Shown here piece by piece: positions 1,418-64,000 of a stretch of DNA of 64,000 nt (position 1 is its first letter; each line of letters begins with the position of its first letter). The stretch spans positions 9,536 to 73,535 of the forward strand of contig DASWPI010000080.1 in the NCBI GenBank assembly GCA_036398515.1, in the 5' to 3' direction. The stretch comes from Paenirhodobacter sp. GTDB lineage: Bacteria > Pseudomonadota > Alphaproteobacteria > Rhodobacterales > Rhodobacteraceae. Position numbers and translations under genes: made by a program. The notes below the pieces were generated by a model. The model was given only the letters and a program-made list of their open reading frames with translations, ran no database searches and was not told where the DNA came from.

Positions 1418-2797
1418 ATGACCCAATCCGCTTTTCCCTCCTGGACGTGGCCCCGTTACGTCCCGCATTTTCGTGCCCTGCTGGTGCTGGGATTGCCGTT
1501 GATCGGCTCCAATCTGGCCCAGGTCGGCCTGCATGTCGTCGATACGGTGATGCTGGGGTGGTATGGGGTGCGGGAACTGGCGGCCGTGGTTCTGGCGTCG
1601 GGGCTGTTTTTCGTGCTGTTCATCCTGGGGTCGGGGTTTTCCTACGCGCTGATGGGGCGGGTGGCGACGGCGCTTGGGGCGGGGGATGAAACCCAGGTGC
1701 GCCGGGATGCGCGGATGACACTGTGGCTGGCGATGATCTTTGCGGTGCTGGCCCTGCCGGTGATGGCGATGTCGGGGCGGATATTGCTGGCGTTGGGGCA
1801 GCATCCTGACGTGGCCGCCCTGGCGCAGGAGTTCTTGCACATCGCCATGTGGGGCATGTTTCCGGCGCTGATCGTTGCGGTTCTCAAGGGGTATCTGAGC
1901 GCGTTCGAGCGCACGCGGATCGTGCTTCTGGTCACGGTTGCGGCGGTGGTGGTGAATATCGCGCTGAACTGGGGGTTGATCTTTGGCAACTTGGGGTTGC
2001 CGCGTCTGGGGCTGCGCGGGGCGGCGATCAGTTCGGTCGTGGTGCAATCGCTGACGGCTCTGGTGCTGGTGGTCTACACGGCGCGGGTACCCGAATTGCG
2101 CCGCTTCCGGCTGTTTTCCCGGCTGTGGCGCCCGGATTGGCCGGCGTTTCGCACCGTCGCACGGGTCGGCCTGCCGATCGGCATCACCTCGGTGTTCGAG
2201 ACCGGGTTCTTTCAGGCCTCGGCGGTGATGATGGGCTGGATCGGCACGGTCGAGCTGGCGGCGCATGGGATCGTGCTGCAACTGGCGTCGCTGGCGTTCA
2301 TGGTGCATCTGGGATTGTCGAATGCGGCGACGGTGCGGGCCGGGCGGGCCCTGGGCGCGGGCGATATTGCAGGGCTGAAGGATGGGGCCATTGTGGCACA
2401 GGTTCTGTCGCTGGGGTTTGGGCTGGTGACCGTGGGGGCGTTCTTGCTGCTGCCCGGTGGCCTGATCGGCCTGTTTCTGGACCCGTCCAACCCCGAGGCG
2501 GCGCGGATCATGGTCGCCGGTATCGCCTTGCTGGCGGTGGCGGGGCTGTTCCAGATTTTCGATGCGACACAGGTGGTTGCCCTGGGACTATTGCGGGGGA
2601 TGCAAGATACCCGCGTGCCGATGTGGATCGCCGGGGCCAGCTATTGGCTGGTGGGTGTTCCGGCCAGCTATGTGCTGGCGTTTCCGCTGGGGCTTGGCGG
2701 GGTCGGACTGTGGTTCGGGCTGATGGCGGGGCTGATCTGCGCCGCGCTGATCCTCAGCCTGCGGTTCTGGCGCGGGCCGTGGTTGCGTTCGGCCTGA
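1418..2797 (+). CDS. MATE family efflux transporter
   Basis: 459-aa polytopic membrane protein. The N-terminal LGLPLIGSNLAQ and the internal duplication pattern are typical of NorM/MATE. Confidence 0.85.
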   Translation: MTQSAFPSWTWPRYVPHFRALLVLGLPLIGSNLAQVGLHVVDTVMLGWYGVRELAAVVLASGLFFVLFILGSGFSYALMGRVATALGAGDETQVRRDARMTLWLAMIFAVLALPVMAMSGRILLALGQHPDVAALAQEFLHIAMWGMFPALIVAVLKGYLSAFERTRIVLLVTVAAVVVNIALNWGLIFGNLGLPRLGLRGAAISSVVVQSLTALVLVVYTARVPELRRFRLFSRLWRPDWPAFRTVARVGLPIGITSVFETGFFQASAVMMGWIGTVELAAHGIVLQLASLAFMVHLGLSNAATVRAGRALGAGDIAGLKDGAIVAQVLSLGFGLVTVGAFLLLPGGLIGLFLDPSNPEAARIMVAGIALLAVAGLFQIFDATQVVALGLLRGMQDTRVPMWIAGASYWLVGVPASYVLAFPLGLGGVGLWFGLMAGLICAALILSLRFWRGPWLRSA

Positions 2798-2802
2798 CCG
2801 AA

Positions 2803-2824
2803 ACGGCGCCCCGTGGGGCGCCGT
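2803..2824. terminator. GC hairpin between convergent MATE and aminotransferase genes
   Basis: ACGGCGCCCC-GT-GGGGCGCCGT perfect inverted repeat in the 36-bp gap between the two stop codons. There is no clear U-tract. Confidence 0.45.
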
Positions 2825-2833
2825 CGTTGGTGG

Positions 2834-4075
<1,242 letters not shown>

Positions 4076-58968: not shown

Positions 58969-60578
58969 TGAATCGCTTTGATACGCTGACCACCTATGCC
59001 GCTGGTGTAAAAGACCGCCGGATCATGGATCTGTTTGATGACGGGGATCGCGCCGCTGATTTCAGCGCCGGTTTCGGCGAGTTCCTGTTCGACTATTCGA
59101 AAACCTCGATTGATGCCGAGGCGCGGACGATGTTGCTGGATCTGGCCGAGGCCTGCGATGTCGCGGGCAAGCGCGAGGCGATGTTCACCGGCGCCAAGAT
59201 CAACGAGACTGAGGGCCGTGCCGTGTTGCATACGGCCTGGCGCAACCCCGATGCCCGTATCGAGGTGGACGGGGTCGACGTGATGCCGCCGCTGCGTCAG
59301 ACGCTGGCACGTATGCGCGCGTTTTCCGAACAGGTGCGTCGTGGCGCCTTTGTCGGGCAGGGCGGGCGGATCACCGATGTGGTGAATATCGGCATCGGTG
59401 GCTCGGATCTGGGGCCAGCGATGGCGGTGCTGGCGCTGTCACCCTATCATGATGGGCCGCGATGCCATTTTGTGTCAAATGTCGATGGTGCGCATATTCA
59501 TGATACGCTGGCGACGCTGAACCCCGAAACCACGCTGGTGATCGTGGCGTCGAAGACCTTCACGACGATCGAAACCATGACCAATGCCGAGACCGCGCGG
59601 CGCTGGATGGCCGCGCAGGTGGACGATCCGGCGGCTCAATTTGCGGCGATTTCAACGGCAACTGACCGGACGGCCGCATTCGGTATCCCGGACAGCCGGG
59701 TTTTCGGGTTTGAAGATTGGGTTGGGGGACGATACTCGGTCTGGTCGCCTATCGGACTGTCGCTGATGATTGCCATTGGGCCGCAGCGTTTCGCCGAATT
59801 CCATGCCGGTGGTGCGGCGATGGACCGGCATTTCCGGGAAGCGCCATTTGCGCAGAACCTGCCGGTATTGCTGGCGCTGGTCGGGATCTGGCACAATCAG
59901 GTTCTGGGCCATGCGACGCGGGCGGTTTTGCCCTACGATCAGCGTCTGTCGCGTTTGCCCGCCTATTTGCAGCAGCTTGAGATGGAATCGAATGGCAAGC
60001 GGGTGTCCATGGATGGCTCTGATCTGGCTTATCAGTCCGGGCCGGTGGTCTGGGGGGAGCCAGGCACCAATGGGCAGCACGCCTTCTATCAGCTGATCCA
60101 TCAGGGAACCCGTACGGTTCCGTGTGAATTTATCCTTGCCGCACAGGGGCATGAACCGGATTTGGCGCATCAACATCTGTTGCTGGCGGCAAATTGTCTG
60201 GCGCAGTCGGAGGCATTGTTGCGGGGGCGGTCGTTGGATGAAGCCCGCGCGATCATGCGTCGCAGGGGTCTTGATGGCGACGAGTTGGAGCGTCAGGCAA
60301 GGCACCGTGTGTTCCCGGGTAATCGCCCATCTACCACGTTGTTGTATGGAAAGCTGACGCCCTATGTCCTGGGGGCAATCATCGCACTGTATGAGCACCG
60401 GGTATTTGTTGAGGGCGTGATTCTGGGGATTAATAGTTTTGACCAATGGGGGGTAGAACTGGGCAAGGAATTGGCAGCTGCTCTGGCCCCGGTTTTGGAT
60501 GGGGATGCCGATGGTGCGGGAAAAGACGGCTCAACCCTCGCACTTGCCGCACGTATACGCGCCATGCGGCAAGGTTGA
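58968..60578 (+). CDS. pgi: glucose-6-phosphate isomerase
   Basis: 536 aa with [30 protein letters not shown] and [15 protein letters not shown]. Confidence 0.97.
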
Positions 60579-60603
60579 TTGCATCCCAGAGGCTTGATCC
60601 CTT

Positions 60604-62802
60604 TTAATATGCGGTAAGCAGCCGGTTCAGTAATGCACGTTCATCCTGACTTTGACTGATCAAGCTGTTTGCCCGCGTGATCGGACCTGGTACTGGGGCG
60701 TCTGCTGCTTCAGGTGCAGGGGCGCTGGCCAAAGGTGCGATTGCAGCCCGTTCATCTTCGCTGCCATGTTCGCGCACGATTTCCCACGAAGCGCCGCGCC
60801 AAGCCTCACGTGCCGAGCCTTGATCGTCGCCCAGTGAGCGCAGAATGGCGGCCGCGTTCGCGTGTTCGCCAAGCGCCAGATATGCGTCCGCACGAAGTTG
60901 GGTGGCGACATTGCCATCCAGACCGGAAAGATGGGCCAATGCCGCCGCCCCATCCTTTTCCGCCAAAGCCGAACGCGCTAGCGCCAGCCGACCCGAGGCC
61001 GTTCCGCGTATTGCAGGAGTCAAAATATCATCGGCGGCAGCACTAAACCCCAGTTTTGACAGGCGGTCCGCCAATTTGATACGAAGGGTCGGTAACAGGT
61101 CCGCTTGTTGCAGTACGATTTTTTGTTTGAATATCTGCTTGGCAAAGATCATATCGTCGGGAACACGGCTGAGCTGTTCAACCAGTTCCCCGCGCGATCT
61201 GGTCCGCAATTCGGGCTGATCGGATTCAGGCCATTGCGCCAACGTGACGAAGGCCTCGTCAAATTCTCCAACTGATCCATGCGCCAAGATCAGTGCTCGG
61301 CGTAGCCGATAGCCCAGATCAGATGGCCCATTCTGATGGAGTTGTGCTGCAAGATCATCCGTTGTGCCCTTGTCTATGCTTTGGTCGCGCATCAGGCGGG
61401 CCTCGACAAATAATACAAGACTTTGCGCCGAATCCAGATCATTGCGGGGTGTTGTGACCGACAAGGATTTCTCTGCTGCCAGCGGTTGACCGGATGCCAA
61501 ATCCAGTTGTGCCTGGGCGAGAACAAGAGGGGTGGCCCCCGTCATATTGCTTCTGCGCAACGCATTTCGGATGGCTTCTGCCACGTCAGAGTGGCCTATT
61601 TTTAACAATTTTTCGACCAGTGCAGGGCCAAGAATATCGCGAATCTGAGATGGCAGAGCAGAGAAGCTGCTTTGAACCGCATTGACGTTGATTTGCCCGG
61701 GGTCACCCGGAATTGGGCCGCCCATGAACGCCCAAAGTGCAACTTTTCCGTTACACGCTGCCATTCGCGAAATAGGGGAATCTGAGGGCGTAGGCATGCC
61801 ATCAATGACGTCTGCTATGTAACCCAGCGGGCCTGCGGAAGCGGCATCAAAGTTGAATGCAGTTATGGTTGCTTTGGCTTCGACGCCAAAACCCAAGGCC
61901 AAATAGAGACGTATCAACCGTTCAACCGCGGCCGTATCCGGGCGATCAAATTCACCGATCAAACCATTTCGAGCTTGTACAAATTGCTTAATCTGGTCTG
62001 CATCGGAGATCCAAGTCTCTAGTGAGAAATTACGGTCACTTGGGCAGGATTGACCATTGGTAAGGACTTTCGCTTGGTCGTTGAGCATGTCCATGTCACG
62101 CTCAAACACTGTCTCGGATTGCAATGGAAGTAGATACGCAGGGGCGATATCTGAATCAGCTACAGATAGGGACGGGCCCGTTATTGTTTTCGCCAGCTTA
62201 CGCGCAGGGTCTACAGTAAAAATTCCCTGCGAGACAGCCCGACTAAGACTATCCAGCAATTGCCGTTCGGAAATACCAACGCGTGTATTGTTTTCTATCG
62301 CAGAGGTTTTGGATTGTGTCTGTGTGATTGTTGAGAGTTTCCCAGAGTTACTATTTGTTATGTTGTCTTGCCAAAGTAGATTGGAATATTTCTGTATATC
62401 TACACGTCCAGATGTTTGGTGATCTCTTGCCGGAGAGCTGACGGGGGTGTCAAGTATATCGATAACGACAGGACCGCTATCAAGCTGATATGCTTTGTTG
62501 TAAAATTTTTCCCCGATTTTAATGATTAATGTATTATTTTCATCATTTGCTAACATGGACACAACACGGTTTCGCGGAATTAGGCGAAACACATCTCGAA
62601 CATCATAGGTGAAATCGCTACGGTTCGTGTGTAGTATAATCTCATCCTCATCCTTACTGATTGTCCATGATGTTCCACGTGGATAGGGGATCACAATACG
62701 TGAAAATCCATCATGTTCACCAGATCGAACAAAAAGTTGTTCGGCCATGGTGGTACCTGCGCTAAATATCAGTATAAAAGAAAGCGAAAAAATTATCCGC
62801 AT
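60604..62802 (-). CDS. secreted hypothetical protein, N-terminal beta-rich module + C-terminal TPR-like helical repeats (motA-coupled)
   Basis: 732 aa. The ATG overlaps the motA stop (TGATG), with GGAGG 9 nt upstream. The signal-like N-terminus is MRIIFSLSFILIFSAGTTMA. The C-terminal half is Ala/Leu-rich, e.g. ADAYLALGEHANAAAILRSLG. Confidence 0.7.
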   Translation of the reverse strand: MRIIFSLSFILIFSAGTTMAEQLFVRSGEHDGFSRIVIPYPRGTSWTISKDEDEIILHTNRSDFTYDVRDVFRLIPRNRVVSMLANDENNTLIIKIGEKFYNKAYQLDSGPVVIDILDTPVSSPARDHQTSGRVDIQKYSNLLWQDNITNSNSGKLSTITQTQSKTSAIENNTRVGISERQLLDSLSRAVSQGIFTVDPARKLAKTITGPSLSVADSDIAPAYLLPLQSETVFERDMDMLNDQAKVLTNGQSCPSDRNFSLETWISDADQIKQFVQARNGLIGEFDRPDTAAVERLIRLYLALGFGVEAKATITAFNFDAASAGPLGYIADVIDGMPTPSDSPISRMAACNGKVALWAFMGGPIPGDPGQINVNAVQSSFSALPSQIRDILGPALVEKLLKIGHSDVAEAIRNALRRSNMTGATPLVLAQAQLDLASGQPLAAEKSLSVTTPRNDLDSAQSLVLFVEARLMRDQSIDKGTTDDLAAQLHQNGPSDLGYRLRRALILAHGSVGEFDEAFVTLAQWPESDQPELRTRSRGELVEQLSRVPDDMIFAKQIFKQKIVLQQADLLPTLRIKLADRLSKLGFSAAADDILTPAIRGTASGRLALARSALAEKDGAAALAHLSGLDGNVATQLRADAYLALGEHANAAAILRSLGDDQGSAREAWRGASWEIVREHGSEDERAAIAPLASAPAPEAADAPVPGPITRANSLISQSQDERALLNRLLTAY

Positions 62803-63671
62803 CACGCTGCCTCCGAACGAACCCCTTTAAGGGCTTCCTCCAGTTCTGAAAAGCTTGGCCGGATATGGTGGGGCATATTTTGTCGGCCTACCTCAATACA
62901 GATATTCGTCGGATTATTGTAGAGATTTGAAACAAGAACTTCCCTGACCAATTTATAGAAATGACTATCTTCATCTGCGGCAAAACGCATCCGCGATGAG
63001 AAAGGGGCGACAAATCCATAAGCTAGAAATACCCCGAGAAATGTACCCACCAGCGCACCACCAATCATTTTCCCTAGAATTTCAGGTGGTTGGTCAATTG
63101 CTCCCATTGTTTTAACAACGCCGAGTACCGCTGCGACGATCCCCAGGGCTGGAAGCGCATCTGCCACTGATTGCATGGCATGGCTAGGGTGCAAAGAATG
63201 CTGGTAACTTGCATCAATCTGCTTGTCGAGGACCTCTTCTACTTGGTGGGGGTCGTCATAATTCATTGATGCTGACCGGAATGTGTCGCAAATCATATCT
63301 ATTATATCATGATCTTTTAATATTTTTGGATATTTTCCAAAAATAGATGACGTTTCCGGATTTTCAATATGCTCTTCAATCGCAACAGGATTTTGACGAA
63401 CAAGTCGGATAATCTCGAATAGCAAACATAGCAGGTCGCGATAATCTGATGGTTTCCATTTCGGCCCTTTGAAGACCTTTTTCATGTCTTTGAGTGTTTG
63501 CTTAACCGTTGGCATGTCATTTGCTAAAATGAATGCACCGACGGCCGCACCACCAATCATCATCATCTCAAAAGGAAGTGAGTGCAGTATTATCCCAATA
63601 TTTCCTCCGGCCGCGATGTAGCCGCCGAATACCATCACGAAGATCAGGATTATGCCAATTATGCCGATCAT
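62802..63671 (-). CDS. motA: flagellar motor stator protein MotA
   Basis: 289 aa in the alphaproteobacterial MotA pattern: GGYIAAGG, IIGGAAVGAF, PALGIVAAVLGVVKTMG and ILGKMIGGALVGTFLG. Confidence 0.92.
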   Translation of the reverse strand: MIGIIGIILIFVMVFGGYIAAGGNIGIILHSLPFEMMMIGGAAVGAFILANDMPTVKQTLKDMKKVFKGPKWKPSDYRDLLCLLFEIIRLVRQNPVAIEEHIENPETSSIFGKYPKILKDHDIIDMICDTFRSASMNYDDPHQVEEVLDKQIDASYQHSLHPSHAMQSVADALPALGIVAAVLGVVKTMGAIDQPPEILGKMIGGALVGTFLGVFLAYGFVAPFSSRMRFAADEDSHFYKLVREVLVSNLYNNPTNICIEVGRQNMPHHIRPSFSELEEALKGVRSEAA

Positions 63672-63720
63672 TTTTTGATTCCAGTAATTGAGGTTGCCGA
63701 AAATCTACTTGGGTTATTTC

Positions 63721-64000
63721 TCAATTTAATGGAGCCCCGGCATTTCTACCGGCCACGATGGCGCTGATGGCATAGGCTGTTTCAGGATTGAGATTCGCGA
63801 AGATGGCAGCAGCAGCCTCGGGTCGCATGCGCCCGAGGAATCCAGATGCAAACTCTGGCGACATTGCAGCGAAGAGCGGAGCAGCGTCTTTCGGCTTCAT
63901 TGTCTCATAGACGATGACCAGTCTGGCTACGTCTTGCTCCGCAGCCTTGTCGGCGATTGTCACCGTCGCTGCCAGTTCTTTTTCGGCCGCGTGAAGCGCT
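63721..64000 (-). CDS. MotE-like / MgtE_N-domain flagellar protein, C-terminal part (open to window end)
   Basis: The frame stays open from 64000 (ALHAAEKELAATVTIADKAAEQDVARLVIVYETMKPKDAAPLFAAMSPEFASGFLGRMRPEAAAAIFANL). The KPKDAA...L..M pattern resembles MgtE_N/MotE-FlbB proteins. Confidence 0.55.
   Translation of the reverse strand, partial: ALHAAEKELAATVTIADKAAEQDVARLVIVYETMKPKDAAPLFAAMSPEFASGFLGRMRPEAAAAIFANLNPETAYAISAIVAGRNAGAPLN

What the first reader, a model, noticed from the sequence alone, without database searches (positions are those of the whole stretch)
60604..62802. Large secreted beta-module + TPR-like protein translationally coupled to motA: candidate novel periplasmic stator scaffold
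- Seen: the ORF starts at the motA stop (TGATG), with GGAGG 9 nt upstream, so it is made stoichiometrically with MotA.
- Seen: the N-terminus MRIIFSLSFILIFSAGTTMA-EQ looks like a Sec signal.
- Seen: residues ~25-125 (LFVRSGEHDGFSRIVIPYP...TLIIKIGEKF...GPVVIDILD) have the alternating beta pattern and terminal V-I-D-L signature reminiscent of AMIN-type beta-sandwich modules.
- Seen: the last ~350 aa are Ala/Leu-rich helical repeats of TPR/Sel1 flavour (ADAYLALGEHANAAAILRSLG, LALARSALAEKDGAAALAHL).
- Seen: I recognise no MotB (OmpA/PG-binding), MotC, FliK or FlgJ motif, and no motB follows motA here.
- Established: periplasmic accessory proteins tune or anchor stators in several lineages. Examples are MotC/MotE in Sinorhizobium, the TPR-rich PflA/PflB in Campylobacter, and MotX/MotY/FlgT in Vibrio.
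- Inference: this protein may be an uncharacterised analogue that positions MotAB units around the basal body.
Basis: partly seen in the sequence, partly recalled or inferred. Interest (0 to 1): 0.7.

Follow-up and report, generated by a model that had tools for sequence, protein, structure and literature searches.

The report
MotK flagellar stator-accessory protein orthologue

Summary
The ORF is real. It lies on the minus strand at 60604-62802 and encodes 732 aa. Its ATG overlaps the motA stop (TGATG), and GGAGG sits 7 nt upstream.

It has a Sec-type signal peptide and a confidently modelled 10-strand beta-sandwich (residues 21-118). Two disordered linkers follow, then a TPR-like alpha-solenoid of about 480 aa. 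Pfam and NCBIfam have no model for it, and databases call its relatives "hypothetical" or "HEAT repeat".

It is the last gene of a fliL-pflI(DUF6468)-motE-motA-X operon. That is the operon in which Velez-Gonzalez et al. (PLoS One 2024) defined MotK in Cereibacter sphaeroides. Their MotK is periplasmic, has an AMIN-like N-domain and a TPR-like C-part, gives a paralysed mutant, and binds MotE and MotB2.

The motE-motA-X order holds in 78 of 80 related Rhodobacterales loci, and motA-X in all 80. The stop/start overlap holds in 77 of 79. The family has about 2,855 clusters at 50% identity. The only significant PDB fold match is the Campylobacter scaffold chain that fits PflA.

Verdict: this is a MotK orthologue and already known.

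One side observation is unexplained. There is a local GC trough with a GC-to-AT substitution excess over motA and the 5' half of motK.

The parts
60604..62802 (-). motK orthologue CDS, 732 aa plus stop. An alternative in-frame GTG start lies at 62805.
   Evidence: ORF list; start context; 54 full-length homologues; 554 genomic relatives; fliL-pflI-motE-motA-X operon.
62810..62814 (-). Shine-Dalgarno-like GGAGG, 7 nt upstream of the ATG and inside the 3' end of motA.
   Evidence: Sequence read directly.
62743..62802 (-). Sec-type signal peptide, residues 1-20, with the predicted cut after TMA.
   Evidence: n/h/c layout and hydrophobicity; conserved in 17 aligned homologues and in nearly all 79 loci. 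Periplasmic location was shown experimentally for C. sphaeroides MotK.
62443..62742 (-). N-terminal ten-strand beta-sandwich, residues 21-120. It is AMIN-like at the fold level and carries the family signature VRSGEHDGFSR...VVIDI.
   Evidence: AF2 pLDDT 91. Foldseek: PilQ B2 (4aqz) TM 0.67, AmiC (4bin) TM 0.61. Invariant S27 G28 H30 F33 R35 V37 W46 R79 V113 D115. No Pfam AMIN hit.
62056..62442 (-). Poorly conserved, predicted-disordered linkers (residues 121-172 and 193-249) flanking one conserved helix (173-191).
   Evidence: pLDDT below 50 at 122-172 and 193-244, helix at 173-191. Median identity to homologues is 7% and 20% for the linkers and 40% for the helix.
60607..62055 (-). TPR-like alpha-solenoid, residues 250-732. 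It has two invariant Cys (C253, C350) and the YLxLGFGxEA motif.
   Evidence: AF2 helices with pLDDT mostly 83-96. Foldseek hits to TPR/PPR proteins; the best hit is 9hmf_K. Weak TPR sequence hits. Invariant columns.
62802..63671 (-). motA, the stator protein A. Its stop overlaps the motK start.
   Evidence: TIGR03818 MotA1, 374 bits; MotA_N and MotA_ExbB.
63721..64000 (-). 3' part of motE (MgtE_N-like, the proposed E-ring protein). The gene runs off the window end.
   Evidence: MgtE_N hit. The full 198-aa gene, with fliL and DUF6468/pflI upstream, is on the identical contig L081.

Best explanation
The ORF encodes the MotK orthologue of a Paenirhodobacter/Sinirhodobacter-like member of the Paracoccaceae. 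It is the last gene of the fliL-pflI-motE-motA-motK operon of the native alphaproteobacterial flagellar cluster. That cluster is called 'fla2' in C. sphaeroides and 'fla1-type' in Rhodobacterales-wide nomenclature.

Shown here from sequence:
- It is translated from a start that overlaps the motA stop.
- It carries a Sec signal peptide.
- It consists of a beta-sandwich, a floppy linker and a long TPR-like superhelix.

Inferred from the experimentally studied orthologue:
- It is exported to the periplasm and binds MotE and the periplasmic part of MotB.
- It is recruited to the flagellated pole in a MotA/MotB-dependent way.
- It is required for rotation but not for assembly, by recruiting, anchoring or opening the stator units.

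More speculative:
- The beta-sandwich anchors the complex to peptidoglycan, as an AMIN domain would, or to a partner protein, as in PflA.
- The TPR superhelix acts as a radial spoke between a MotE (FlgY-like) E-ring and the stators.
For: - Operon: an independent, 100% identical contig gives fliL, DUF6468 (pflI), MgtE_N (motE), motA, then this gene. This is the operon described for motK.
- Synteny: motE-motA-X is found in 78 of 80 related loci, and motA-X in 80 of 80.
- Coupling: the motA stop overlaps the X start in 77 of 79 loci.
- Architecture: signal peptide, beta domain at 21-118, disordered linkers and an alpha-solenoid. The published MotK has a 24-aa signal, beta strands at 23-119, disordered Pro-rich regions and a TPR-like remainder.
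- Fold searches: AMIN domains of PilQ and AmiC give the best TM-scores for the N-domain. Those are the same templates the MotK paper reports.
- Direct sequence link: primers in the paper's S1 Table encode the mature N-terminus of C. sphaeroides MotK as AEAAVRTGEHPGF. This is the family signature xVR[ST]GEHxGF, which occurs once in the six-frame translation of the window, at this gene.
- Genetics elsewhere: in Phaeobacter inhibens the gene after motA (CP4) gave 6 immotile transposon mutants that still export FliC, FlgE and FlgK.
- PflA link: the whole-protein Foldseek top hit, and the only one with E < 1e-3, is the C. jejuni periplasmic scaffold chain of 773 residues. That length fits PflA 16-788, a beta-sandwich plus linker plus TPR spoke protein.
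Against: - I could not retrieve the full C. sphaeroides MotK sequence. Homology to the type member rests on a 13-residue primer-derived peptide, synteny and architecture, plus the paper's statement that Paracoccaceae homologues exist with low similarity.
- The AMIN resemblance is weak statistically (Foldseek E = 3e-3 to 1.5e-2, no Pfam AMIN hit). Small heat-shock protein folds score similar E-values, though with much worse rmsd.
- No peptidoglycan binding has been shown for any MotK.
- Nothing was tested in this organism. The operon here has an odd base composition and sits at a rearranged cluster edge, with pgi downstream instead of sltF.
Confidence: 0.9

Rival explanations
1. It is best understood as a true PflA homologue rather than an AMIN-anchored protein. 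On this view the TPR superhelix forms radial spokes from a MotE/FlgY E-ring. The N-terminal beta-sandwich plus linker grips a protein partner (a PflB-like rim or MotB), not peptidoglycan.
For: - The only Foldseek match with E < 1e-3 for the whole model is 9hmf_K, whose length fits PflA.
- PflA has the same order of beta-sandwich, unstructured linker and TPR superhelix. Its beta-sandwich and linker bind PflB.
- A 2026 review proposes that MotE is a FlgY homologue and that MotK and MotC are PflA-like.
Against: - TM-score to 9hmf_K is only 0.20, with 10% identity.
- There is no sequence-level link.
- The chain identity is inferred from its length only.
- No PflB-like gene is known in these clusters.
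- This reading refines the MotK explanation more than it competes with it.
Confidence: 0.35
2. It acts mainly as a periplasmic chaperone or stabiliser of MotE, and indirectly of stator assembly, rather than as a structural part of the motor.
For: - In C. sphaeroides, MotE is unstable without MotK, but MotK is stable without MotE.
- TPR proteins are often chaperones.
- MotE itself was first described as a chaperone of MotC in S. meliloti.
Against: - MotK-sfGFP localises to the flagellated pole, and this depends on MotA2 and MotB2.
- MotK binds MotB2 directly in vitro.
- A large, universally conserved 700-aa protein with a separate beta domain is more than a chaperone needs.
Confidence: 0.1
3. 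It is a generic TPR/HEAT-repeat periplasmic protein that merely sits next to motA and has no flagellar role. This is what the database names ('hypothetical', 'HEAT repeat protein') would suggest.
For: - No Pfam or NCBIfam family matches.
- Sources name the relatives 'hypothetical' or 'HEAT repeat'.
Against: - It is adjacent to motA in 80 of 80 loci, with the stop/start overlap in 77 of 79.
- Mutants of the positional orthologues in two genera are immotile.
Confidence: 0.02

Closest known systems
MotK of Cereibacter (Rhodobacter) sphaeroides, Fla2 system (RSWS8N_12065; UniProt Q3IY86; Velez-Gonzalez et al. 2024, PMC10954123)
   Same: - Same operon and position: fliL-pflI-motE-motA-motK.
- Same layout: Sec signal, N-terminal beta domain of about 100 residues modelled on AMIN domains, disordered linkers, TPR-like C-part.
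- Same signature at the mature N-terminus: AEAAVRTGEHPGF in MotK versus AEQLFVRSGEHDGF here.
   Different: - This protein is 732 aa against 652 aa for MotK.
- Similarity across the family is low; the paper itself notes low similarity among Rhodobacterales homologues.
- Here the linker is Ser/Thr/Asn-rich rather than Pro/Ala-rich.
- sltF does not follow the gene here.
- No experiments exist for this organism.
CP4 (PGA1_c35690) of Phaeobacter inhibens, fla1-type flagellar cluster (PMC12363192)
   Same: - It is the gene immediately downstream of motA, after CP2 and CP3 (the pflI and motE positions).
- It is essential for swimming.
- It is described as universally present in fla1-type clusters of Rhodobacterales.
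   Different: - That paper treats it as uncharacterised and does not connect it to MotK.
- I did not align the sequences directly.
PflA of Campylobacter jejuni and Helicobacter pylori (proximal-disk spoke; PDB 9HMF)
   Same: - It is periplasmic.
- It has an N-terminal beta-sandwich, an unstructured linker and a long TPR superhelix.
- It is needed to hold stators in the motor.
- It contacts an E-ring (FlgY), which is MotE-like.
- It is the top structural match here (E = 2.3e-5).
   Different: - There is no detectable sequence similarity.
- The TM-score is low (0.20).
- PflA works with PflB and a disk system that Rhodobacterales lack.
- Common ancestry is proposed in the literature but not shown.
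AMIN domain (Pfam PF11741; AmiC 4BIN, PilQ B2 4AQZ)
   Same: The beta-sandwich is of similar size and topology. TM-scores are 0.61 to AmiC and 0.67 to PilQ B2, the best geometric matches for the N-domain.
   Different: - There is no Pfam AMIN hit even at E <= 1.
- Foldseek E-values are only 3e-3 to 1.5e-2.
- Peptidoglycan binding is untested.
MotC of Sinorhizobium meliloti (with its partner MotE)
   Same: It is a periplasmic, TPR-rich partner of MotE that is required for rotation and acts on MotB (as summarised in PMC13023049).
   Different: - MotC lacks the N-terminal beta domain.
- Its gene sits in a different context (motB-motC).
- I did not test this relationship.

Membership tests
MotK (Rhodobacterales stator-accessory protein) | The gene lies immediately downstream of motA in a fliL-pflI-motE-motA-motK operon. 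| tested here: met
   L081, identical to the window, shows FliL, DUF6468, MgtE_N, MotA and then this gene. motA-X holds in 80 of 80 related loci and motE upstream in 78 of 80.
MotK (Rhodobacterales stator-accessory protein) | An N-terminal Sec signal peptide, giving a periplasmic protein. | tested here: met
   The n/h/c regions and an AxA-like site are conserved in all 17 aligned homologues and in nearly all 79 loci. This is judged by eye and by hydrophobicity only, because no SignalP was available. Actual export was not testable.
MotK (Rhodobacterales stator-accessory protein) | An N-terminal beta domain of about 100 residues whose best structural templates are AMIN domains (AmiC, PilQ). | tested here: met
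   AF2 pLDDT is 91 with ten strands. Foldseek best TM-scores are PilQ B2 4aqz (0.67, rmsd 3.9) and AmiC 4bin (0.61), but the E-values are weak.
MotK (Rhodobacterales stator-accessory protein) | A TPR-like alpha-helical remainder separated from the beta domain by disordered linkers. | tested here: met
   The AF2 model is disordered at 122-172 and 193-244 and forms a solenoid at 250-731. Foldseek hits are TPR/PPR proteins.
MotK (Rhodobacterales stator-accessory protein) | Significant full-length sequence similarity to C. sphaeroides MotK (Q3IY86). | tested here: inconclusive
   The full sequence could not be retrieved with the capped searches. Only the primer-derived mature N-terminus AEAAVRTGEHPGF could be compared. 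It carries the family's invariant G, H and F columns.
MotK (Rhodobacterales stator-accessory protein) | Loss gives a flagellated but paralysed cell, and the protein binds MotE and MotB. | not testable with these tools
   These are published for C. sphaeroides. An immotile phenotype is published for P. inhibens CP4.
PflA (Campylobacterota proximal-disk spoke) | The architecture of beta-sandwich, linker and roughly 16-TPR superhelix, with structural similarity to PflA. | tested here: inconclusive
   The top Foldseek hit is 9hmf_K (E = 2.3e-5, prob 1.0), but with TM 0.20 and 10% identity. The chain is assigned to PflA by its length only. There is no sequence-level hit.
AMIN domain (Pfam PF11741) | A match to the Pfam AMIN profile. 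| tested here: not met
   There is no AMIN hit at E <= 1 in hmmscan against Pfam-A. The resemblance is at the fold level only.
MotB / OmpA-like peptidoglycan-binding stator protein | An OmpA_C-like domain and an N-terminal transmembrane plug helix. | tested here: not met
   There is no OmpA or MotB family hit in Pfam or NCBIfam. The N-terminus is a cleavable signal peptide.

The most novel reading that the evidence does not exclude
MotK is a genuine, highly diverged homologue of PflA, and with MotE (a FlgY-like E-ring protein) it forms an E-ring-plus-spoke stator scaffold in Rhodobacterales motors. On this reading the AMIN-like beta-sandwich grips a protein partner that is still unidentified, rather than peptidoglycan. 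This would mean the spoke-and-E-ring scaffold predates the split of Alphaproteobacteria and Campylobacterota. The idea has already been floated in a 2026 review, so even if true it is only moderately new.
Probability: 0.35. Interest if true: 0.45.

Novelty: already known. Interest (0 to 1): 0.15.

Why it matters
It matters mainly for annotation. This large family has about 2,855 clusters at 50% identity with E <= 1e-30. It is present next to motA in every related locus examined (80 of 80). Yet it has no Pfam or NCBIfam model and is still labelled 'hypothetical' or 'HEAT repeat'. In this very genome the public gene call also starts at Met19 and so loses the signal peptide.

Linking such ORFs to MotK, and to CP4 of Phaeobacter, which a 2025 paper still called uncharacterised, would tidy flagellar cluster annotation in Rhodobacterales. 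It would also give structural biologists a broad alignment for testing the proposed MotK-PflA relationship. It does not open a new question.

Tried and rejected
- Pfam and NCBIfam scans of the protein found nothing usable: TPR_19 at E = 0.23 and HEAT_Nup120 at E = 0.038, both below cut-off.
- A profile search of PDB sequences gave only weak generic TPR hits, with E >= 0.003.
- I made four attempts to fetch the named C. sphaeroides MotK sequence, and all failed:
  - a profile search with the full-length alignment returned the same 50-odd proteins;
  - a search with an N-domain alignment returned only short fragments;
  - the exhaustive representative search lists only the best 150, none of about 652 aa;
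  - a cluster look-up of candidates of about 650 aa gave unnamed MAG proteins.
- I fell back on primer sequences from the paper's supplement.
- The small heat-shock (alpha-crystallin) fold hits for the N-domain were rejected as the better description, because their rmsd is 11-14 A against 3.9-4.5 A for AMIN domains.
- Promoter and terminator pattern scans around the operon were no better than shuffles and were not used.
- I considered a recombination breakpoint inside motK from a distant low-GC donor as the cause of the GC gradient. I rate it unlikely, because protein identity to S. populi is even along the gene (65% in the beta domain, 67% in the solenoid) and MotA is 90% identical to S. populi.
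Full report
**1. What is in the sequence**

The ORF is on the minus strand at 60604-62802 and encodes 732 aa. The start context reads GGAGG-cagcgtg-ATG. The ATG (62802-62800) shares one base with the motA stop TGA (62804-62802). An in-frame GTG sits one codon further up, at the position where most relatives have ATGA. The 7-nt spacing favours the ATG.

The upstream gene is a true motA (TIGR03818, 374 bits; MotA_N and MotA_ExbB). The fragment at the window edge (63721-64000) is the 3' part of a MgtE_N-type motE. Downstream, only 25 nt away, lies a convergent pgi, followed by pgl and zwf.

The public gene call for this protein (P0001, 714 aa) starts at Met19 and drops the signal peptide.

**2. 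Anatomy**

- Residues 1-20 (MRIIFSLSFILIFSAGTTMA|EQ) look like a Sec signal. They have a basic residue at position 2, a hydrophobic core (mean Kyte-Doolittle 2.96 over ten residues) and T-M-A before the cut. All 17 aligned homologues share this layout.
- An AlphaFold2 model built on that alignment has mean pLDDT 79.
- It shows a ten-strand beta domain at 21-118.
- It shows disordered stretches at 122-172 and 193-244 around one conserved helix (173-191).
- It shows an alpha-solenoid from about 250 to 731, mostly at pLDDT 83-96.
- Modelled alone with 24 sequences, the N-domain reaches pLDDT 91 and pTM 0.82.
- Invariant positions cluster in the beta domain (S27 G28 H30 F33 R35 V37 W46 R79 V113 D115).
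- Further invariant positions are two cysteines (C253, C350) and a YLxLGFGxEA motif. I infer that the cysteines form a periplasmic disulfide; this is untested.
- Conservation by region:

| Region | Identity to nearest relative | Median identity over 16 homologues |
|---|---|---|
| Beta domain | 65% | 35% |
| Solenoid | 67% | 33% |
| Linker 1 (121-172) | 19% | 7% |
| Linker 2 (193-249) | 40% | 20% |

**3. Database status**

- Pfam and NCBIfam have no model for the protein.
- A profile search of PDB sequences finds only weak generic TPR matches (E >= 0.003).
- Sources name the homologues 'hypothetical protein' or 'HEAT repeat protein'.

**4. Relatives and context**

- The first protein search found 54 full-length homologues, all from Rhodobacterales. 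The nearest is Paenirhodobacter/Sinirhodobacter populi at 61% identity.
- A scan of one genome per species found 554 relatives. The best 80 are all Paracoccaceae, Roseobacteraceae or unclassified relatives.
- An exhaustive HMMER search of 1.84 billion cluster representatives found 2,855 clusters at E <= 1e-30. This is a large, fast-evolving family.
- In all 80 loci motA lies immediately upstream. In 78 of 80 a motE-like gene lies upstream of that.
- In 77 of 79 loci the start codon overlaps the motA stop: ATGA in 60 and TGATG in 17. Every N-terminus is a signal peptide followed by the RSGEH motif.
- An independent Logan contig (L081, SRR10968246) is 100% identical to the window over 3,922 nt. 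It extends past the window edge and shows the whole operon: fliL, DUF6468, motE (198 aa), motA, this gene, then convergent pgi.
- S. populi has the same motK-pgi-pgl-zwf junction. The other 79 loci do not.

**5. What it is**

The operon fliL-pflI-motE-motA-X is the one in which Velez-Gonzalez et al. (PLoS One 2024, PMC10954123) defined MotK in Cereibacter sphaeroides. They report the following:

- MotK is 652 aa with a 24-residue Sec signal.
- It has an N-terminal region of 8 beta strands (residues 23-119), whose best modelling templates were the AMIN domain of AmiC and then that of PilQ.
- It has disordered Pro-rich regions and a TPR-like remainder.
- motK::aadA cells are flagellated but paralysed, and are complemented in trans.
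- MotK is protease-accessible in spheroplasts, so it is periplasmic.
- It binds MotE and MotB2 in vitro, and MotE is unstable without it.
- MotK-sfGFP sits at the flagellated pole in a MotA2/MotB2-dependent way.
- The gene arrangement is conserved in Paracoccaceae, with low-similarity homologues in Roseobacteraceae.

My fold searches reproduce their structural reading independently.

- For the N-domain, the best geometric matches are the PilQ B2 AMIN domain (4aqz, TM 0.67, rmsd 3.9 A) and AmiC (4bin, TM 0.61, rmsd 4.5 A).
- Their E-values are weak (3e-3 to 1.5e-2).
- Small heat-shock folds have similar E-values but rmsd above 11 A.
- For the whole protein, most hits are TPR/PPR proteins.

I could not retrieve the full C. 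sphaeroides sequence. However, two primers in the paper's S1 Table overlap. Together they encode the mature N-terminus of C. sphaeroides MotK as AEAAVRTGEHPGF. This is the family signature, AEQLFVRSGEHDGF here, including the invariant G, H and F columns. The pattern R[ST]GEHxGF[ST] occurs once in the six-frame translation of the window, at this gene.

A further primer places the MotA C-terminus (NMCIEVG; NICIEVG here) just upstream of motK in C. sphaeroides.

Independently, a 2025 transposon screen in Phaeobacter inhibens found that the gene after motA (CP4, PGA1_c35690) gave six immotile mutants. These mutants still export FliC, FlgE and FlgK. The paper describes CP1-4 as universally present in fla1-type clusters (PMC12363192). 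That paper does not mention MotK.

**6. How it most likely works**

Shown here: co-translation with MotA from an overlapping start, a signal peptide, and the beta-sandwich/linker/TPR-solenoid architecture.

Inferred from the orthologue: export to the periplasm, binding of MotE and the periplasmic part of MotB, recruitment to the motor, and a requirement for rotation but not for assembly.

More speculative: the beta-sandwich anchors to peptidoglycan or to a partner, and the solenoid acts as a spoke.

The only Foldseek match with E < 1e-3 for the full model is chain K of 9HMF, the C. jejuni periplasmic scaffold (E = 2.3e-5). The TM-score is only 0.20 and identity only 10%. Its 773 residues fit PflA 16-788. 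PflA is a beta-sandwich plus unstructured linker plus 16-TPR spoke, and its N-part grips PflB (PMC12222027). I assigned the chain from its length only.

A 2026 review already proposes that MotE is a FlgY-type E-ring protein and that MotK and MotC are PflA-like (PMC13023049).

Overlap coupling does not fix a ratio.

**7. Verdict**

The functional interpretation is essentially right. It was anticipated by published experiments, so the protein is neither novel nor uncharacterised. I file it as an orthologue of MotK and rate it already known and of low interest. The practical value is for annotation: there is no family model, databases use misleading 'HEAT repeat' names, and the gene call in this genome is truncated.

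**8. Noticed in passing: a local GC trough**

The window has 62.7% GC. The operon is much lower:

| Gene or region | GC | GC3 |
|---|---|---|
| motA | 44.9% | 0.43 |
| motK codons 1-100 | 39% | 0.33 |
| motK codons 601-700 | 65% | 0.57 |
| fliL, pflI, motE | 54-58% | 0.60-0.65 |
| pgi, pgl, zwf (neighbours) | 60-66% | 0.67-0.77 |
| motA orthologues in four relatives | 59-62% | 0.80-0.85 |

GC3 in motK rises steadily along the gene between the two values shown.

MotA is nonetheless 90% identical at the protein level to the S. populi protein. I polarised the changes with a Paenirhodobacter outgroup. On the window's branch, 86 of 104 motA changes are GC-to-AT and 10 are AT-to-GC.

The bias reaches the protein. 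The linker has 22% F/Y/M/I/N/K, against 8-13% in homologues. It has 20% G/A/R/P, against 37-55% in 15 of the 16 homologues.

The identical independent contig argues against an assembly error. S. populi has its own low-GC patch elsewhere in the cluster, where a 195-aa ORF that I did not identify has GC3 0.49. I have no tested explanation for any of this.

Noticed in passing
window 62000-63700 (motA and the 5' half of motK); upstream genes on L081 1-1600: There is a local GC trough in a 62.7% GC window. motA has GC3 0.43 and motK codons 1-100 have GC3 0.33, rising to 0.57 towards the 3' end. Orthologous motA genes in four relatives have GC3 0.80-0.85, although MotA is 90% identical at the protein level to the S. 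populi protein. On the window's branch, 86 of 104 motA changes are GC-to-AT. The bias also shifts the amino-acid composition of the MotK linker. An independent identical contig argues against an assembly artefact. The cause is unknown; candidates are local mutation bias, loss of biased gene conversion, and mosaic recombination.
   Followed up: partly
L001 1-2000 (Sinirhodobacter populi flagellar cluster, upstream of the 554-aa ORF at 1956-3620): The nearest relative has its own low-GC patch (GC 0.49-0.50) in a different part of the same flagellar cluster. A 195-aa ORF there, which I did not identify, has GC3 0.49, against 0.72-0.78 for its neighbours. This suggests patchy AT-rich tracts are a feature of flagellar clusters in this clade.
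   Followed up: no
window 62748-62802 (first 18 codons of motK): The public gene call for this protein (P0001, 714 aa) starts at Met19 and omits the signal peptide. The conserved stop/start overlap with motA in 77 of 79 relatives shows that the longer form is correct.
   Followed up: yes
window 60578-60604, and L001 8206-8219: The operon ends 25 nt from a convergent pgi-pgl-zwf block. Only S. populi, among 80 related loci, shares this junction. In C. sphaeroides and P. inhibens sltF and flhA follow motK instead. The flagellar cluster is therefore rearranged or split at this point in this lineage.
   Followed up: partly
literature (PMC12363192 versus PMC10954123): The 2025 Phaeobacter inhibens study calls the gene after motA 'CP4' and treats CP1-4 as uncharacterised. 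By position, CP2, CP3 and CP4 correspond to pflI, motE and motK as named in 2024. The two nomenclatures have not been reconciled.
   Followed up: partly
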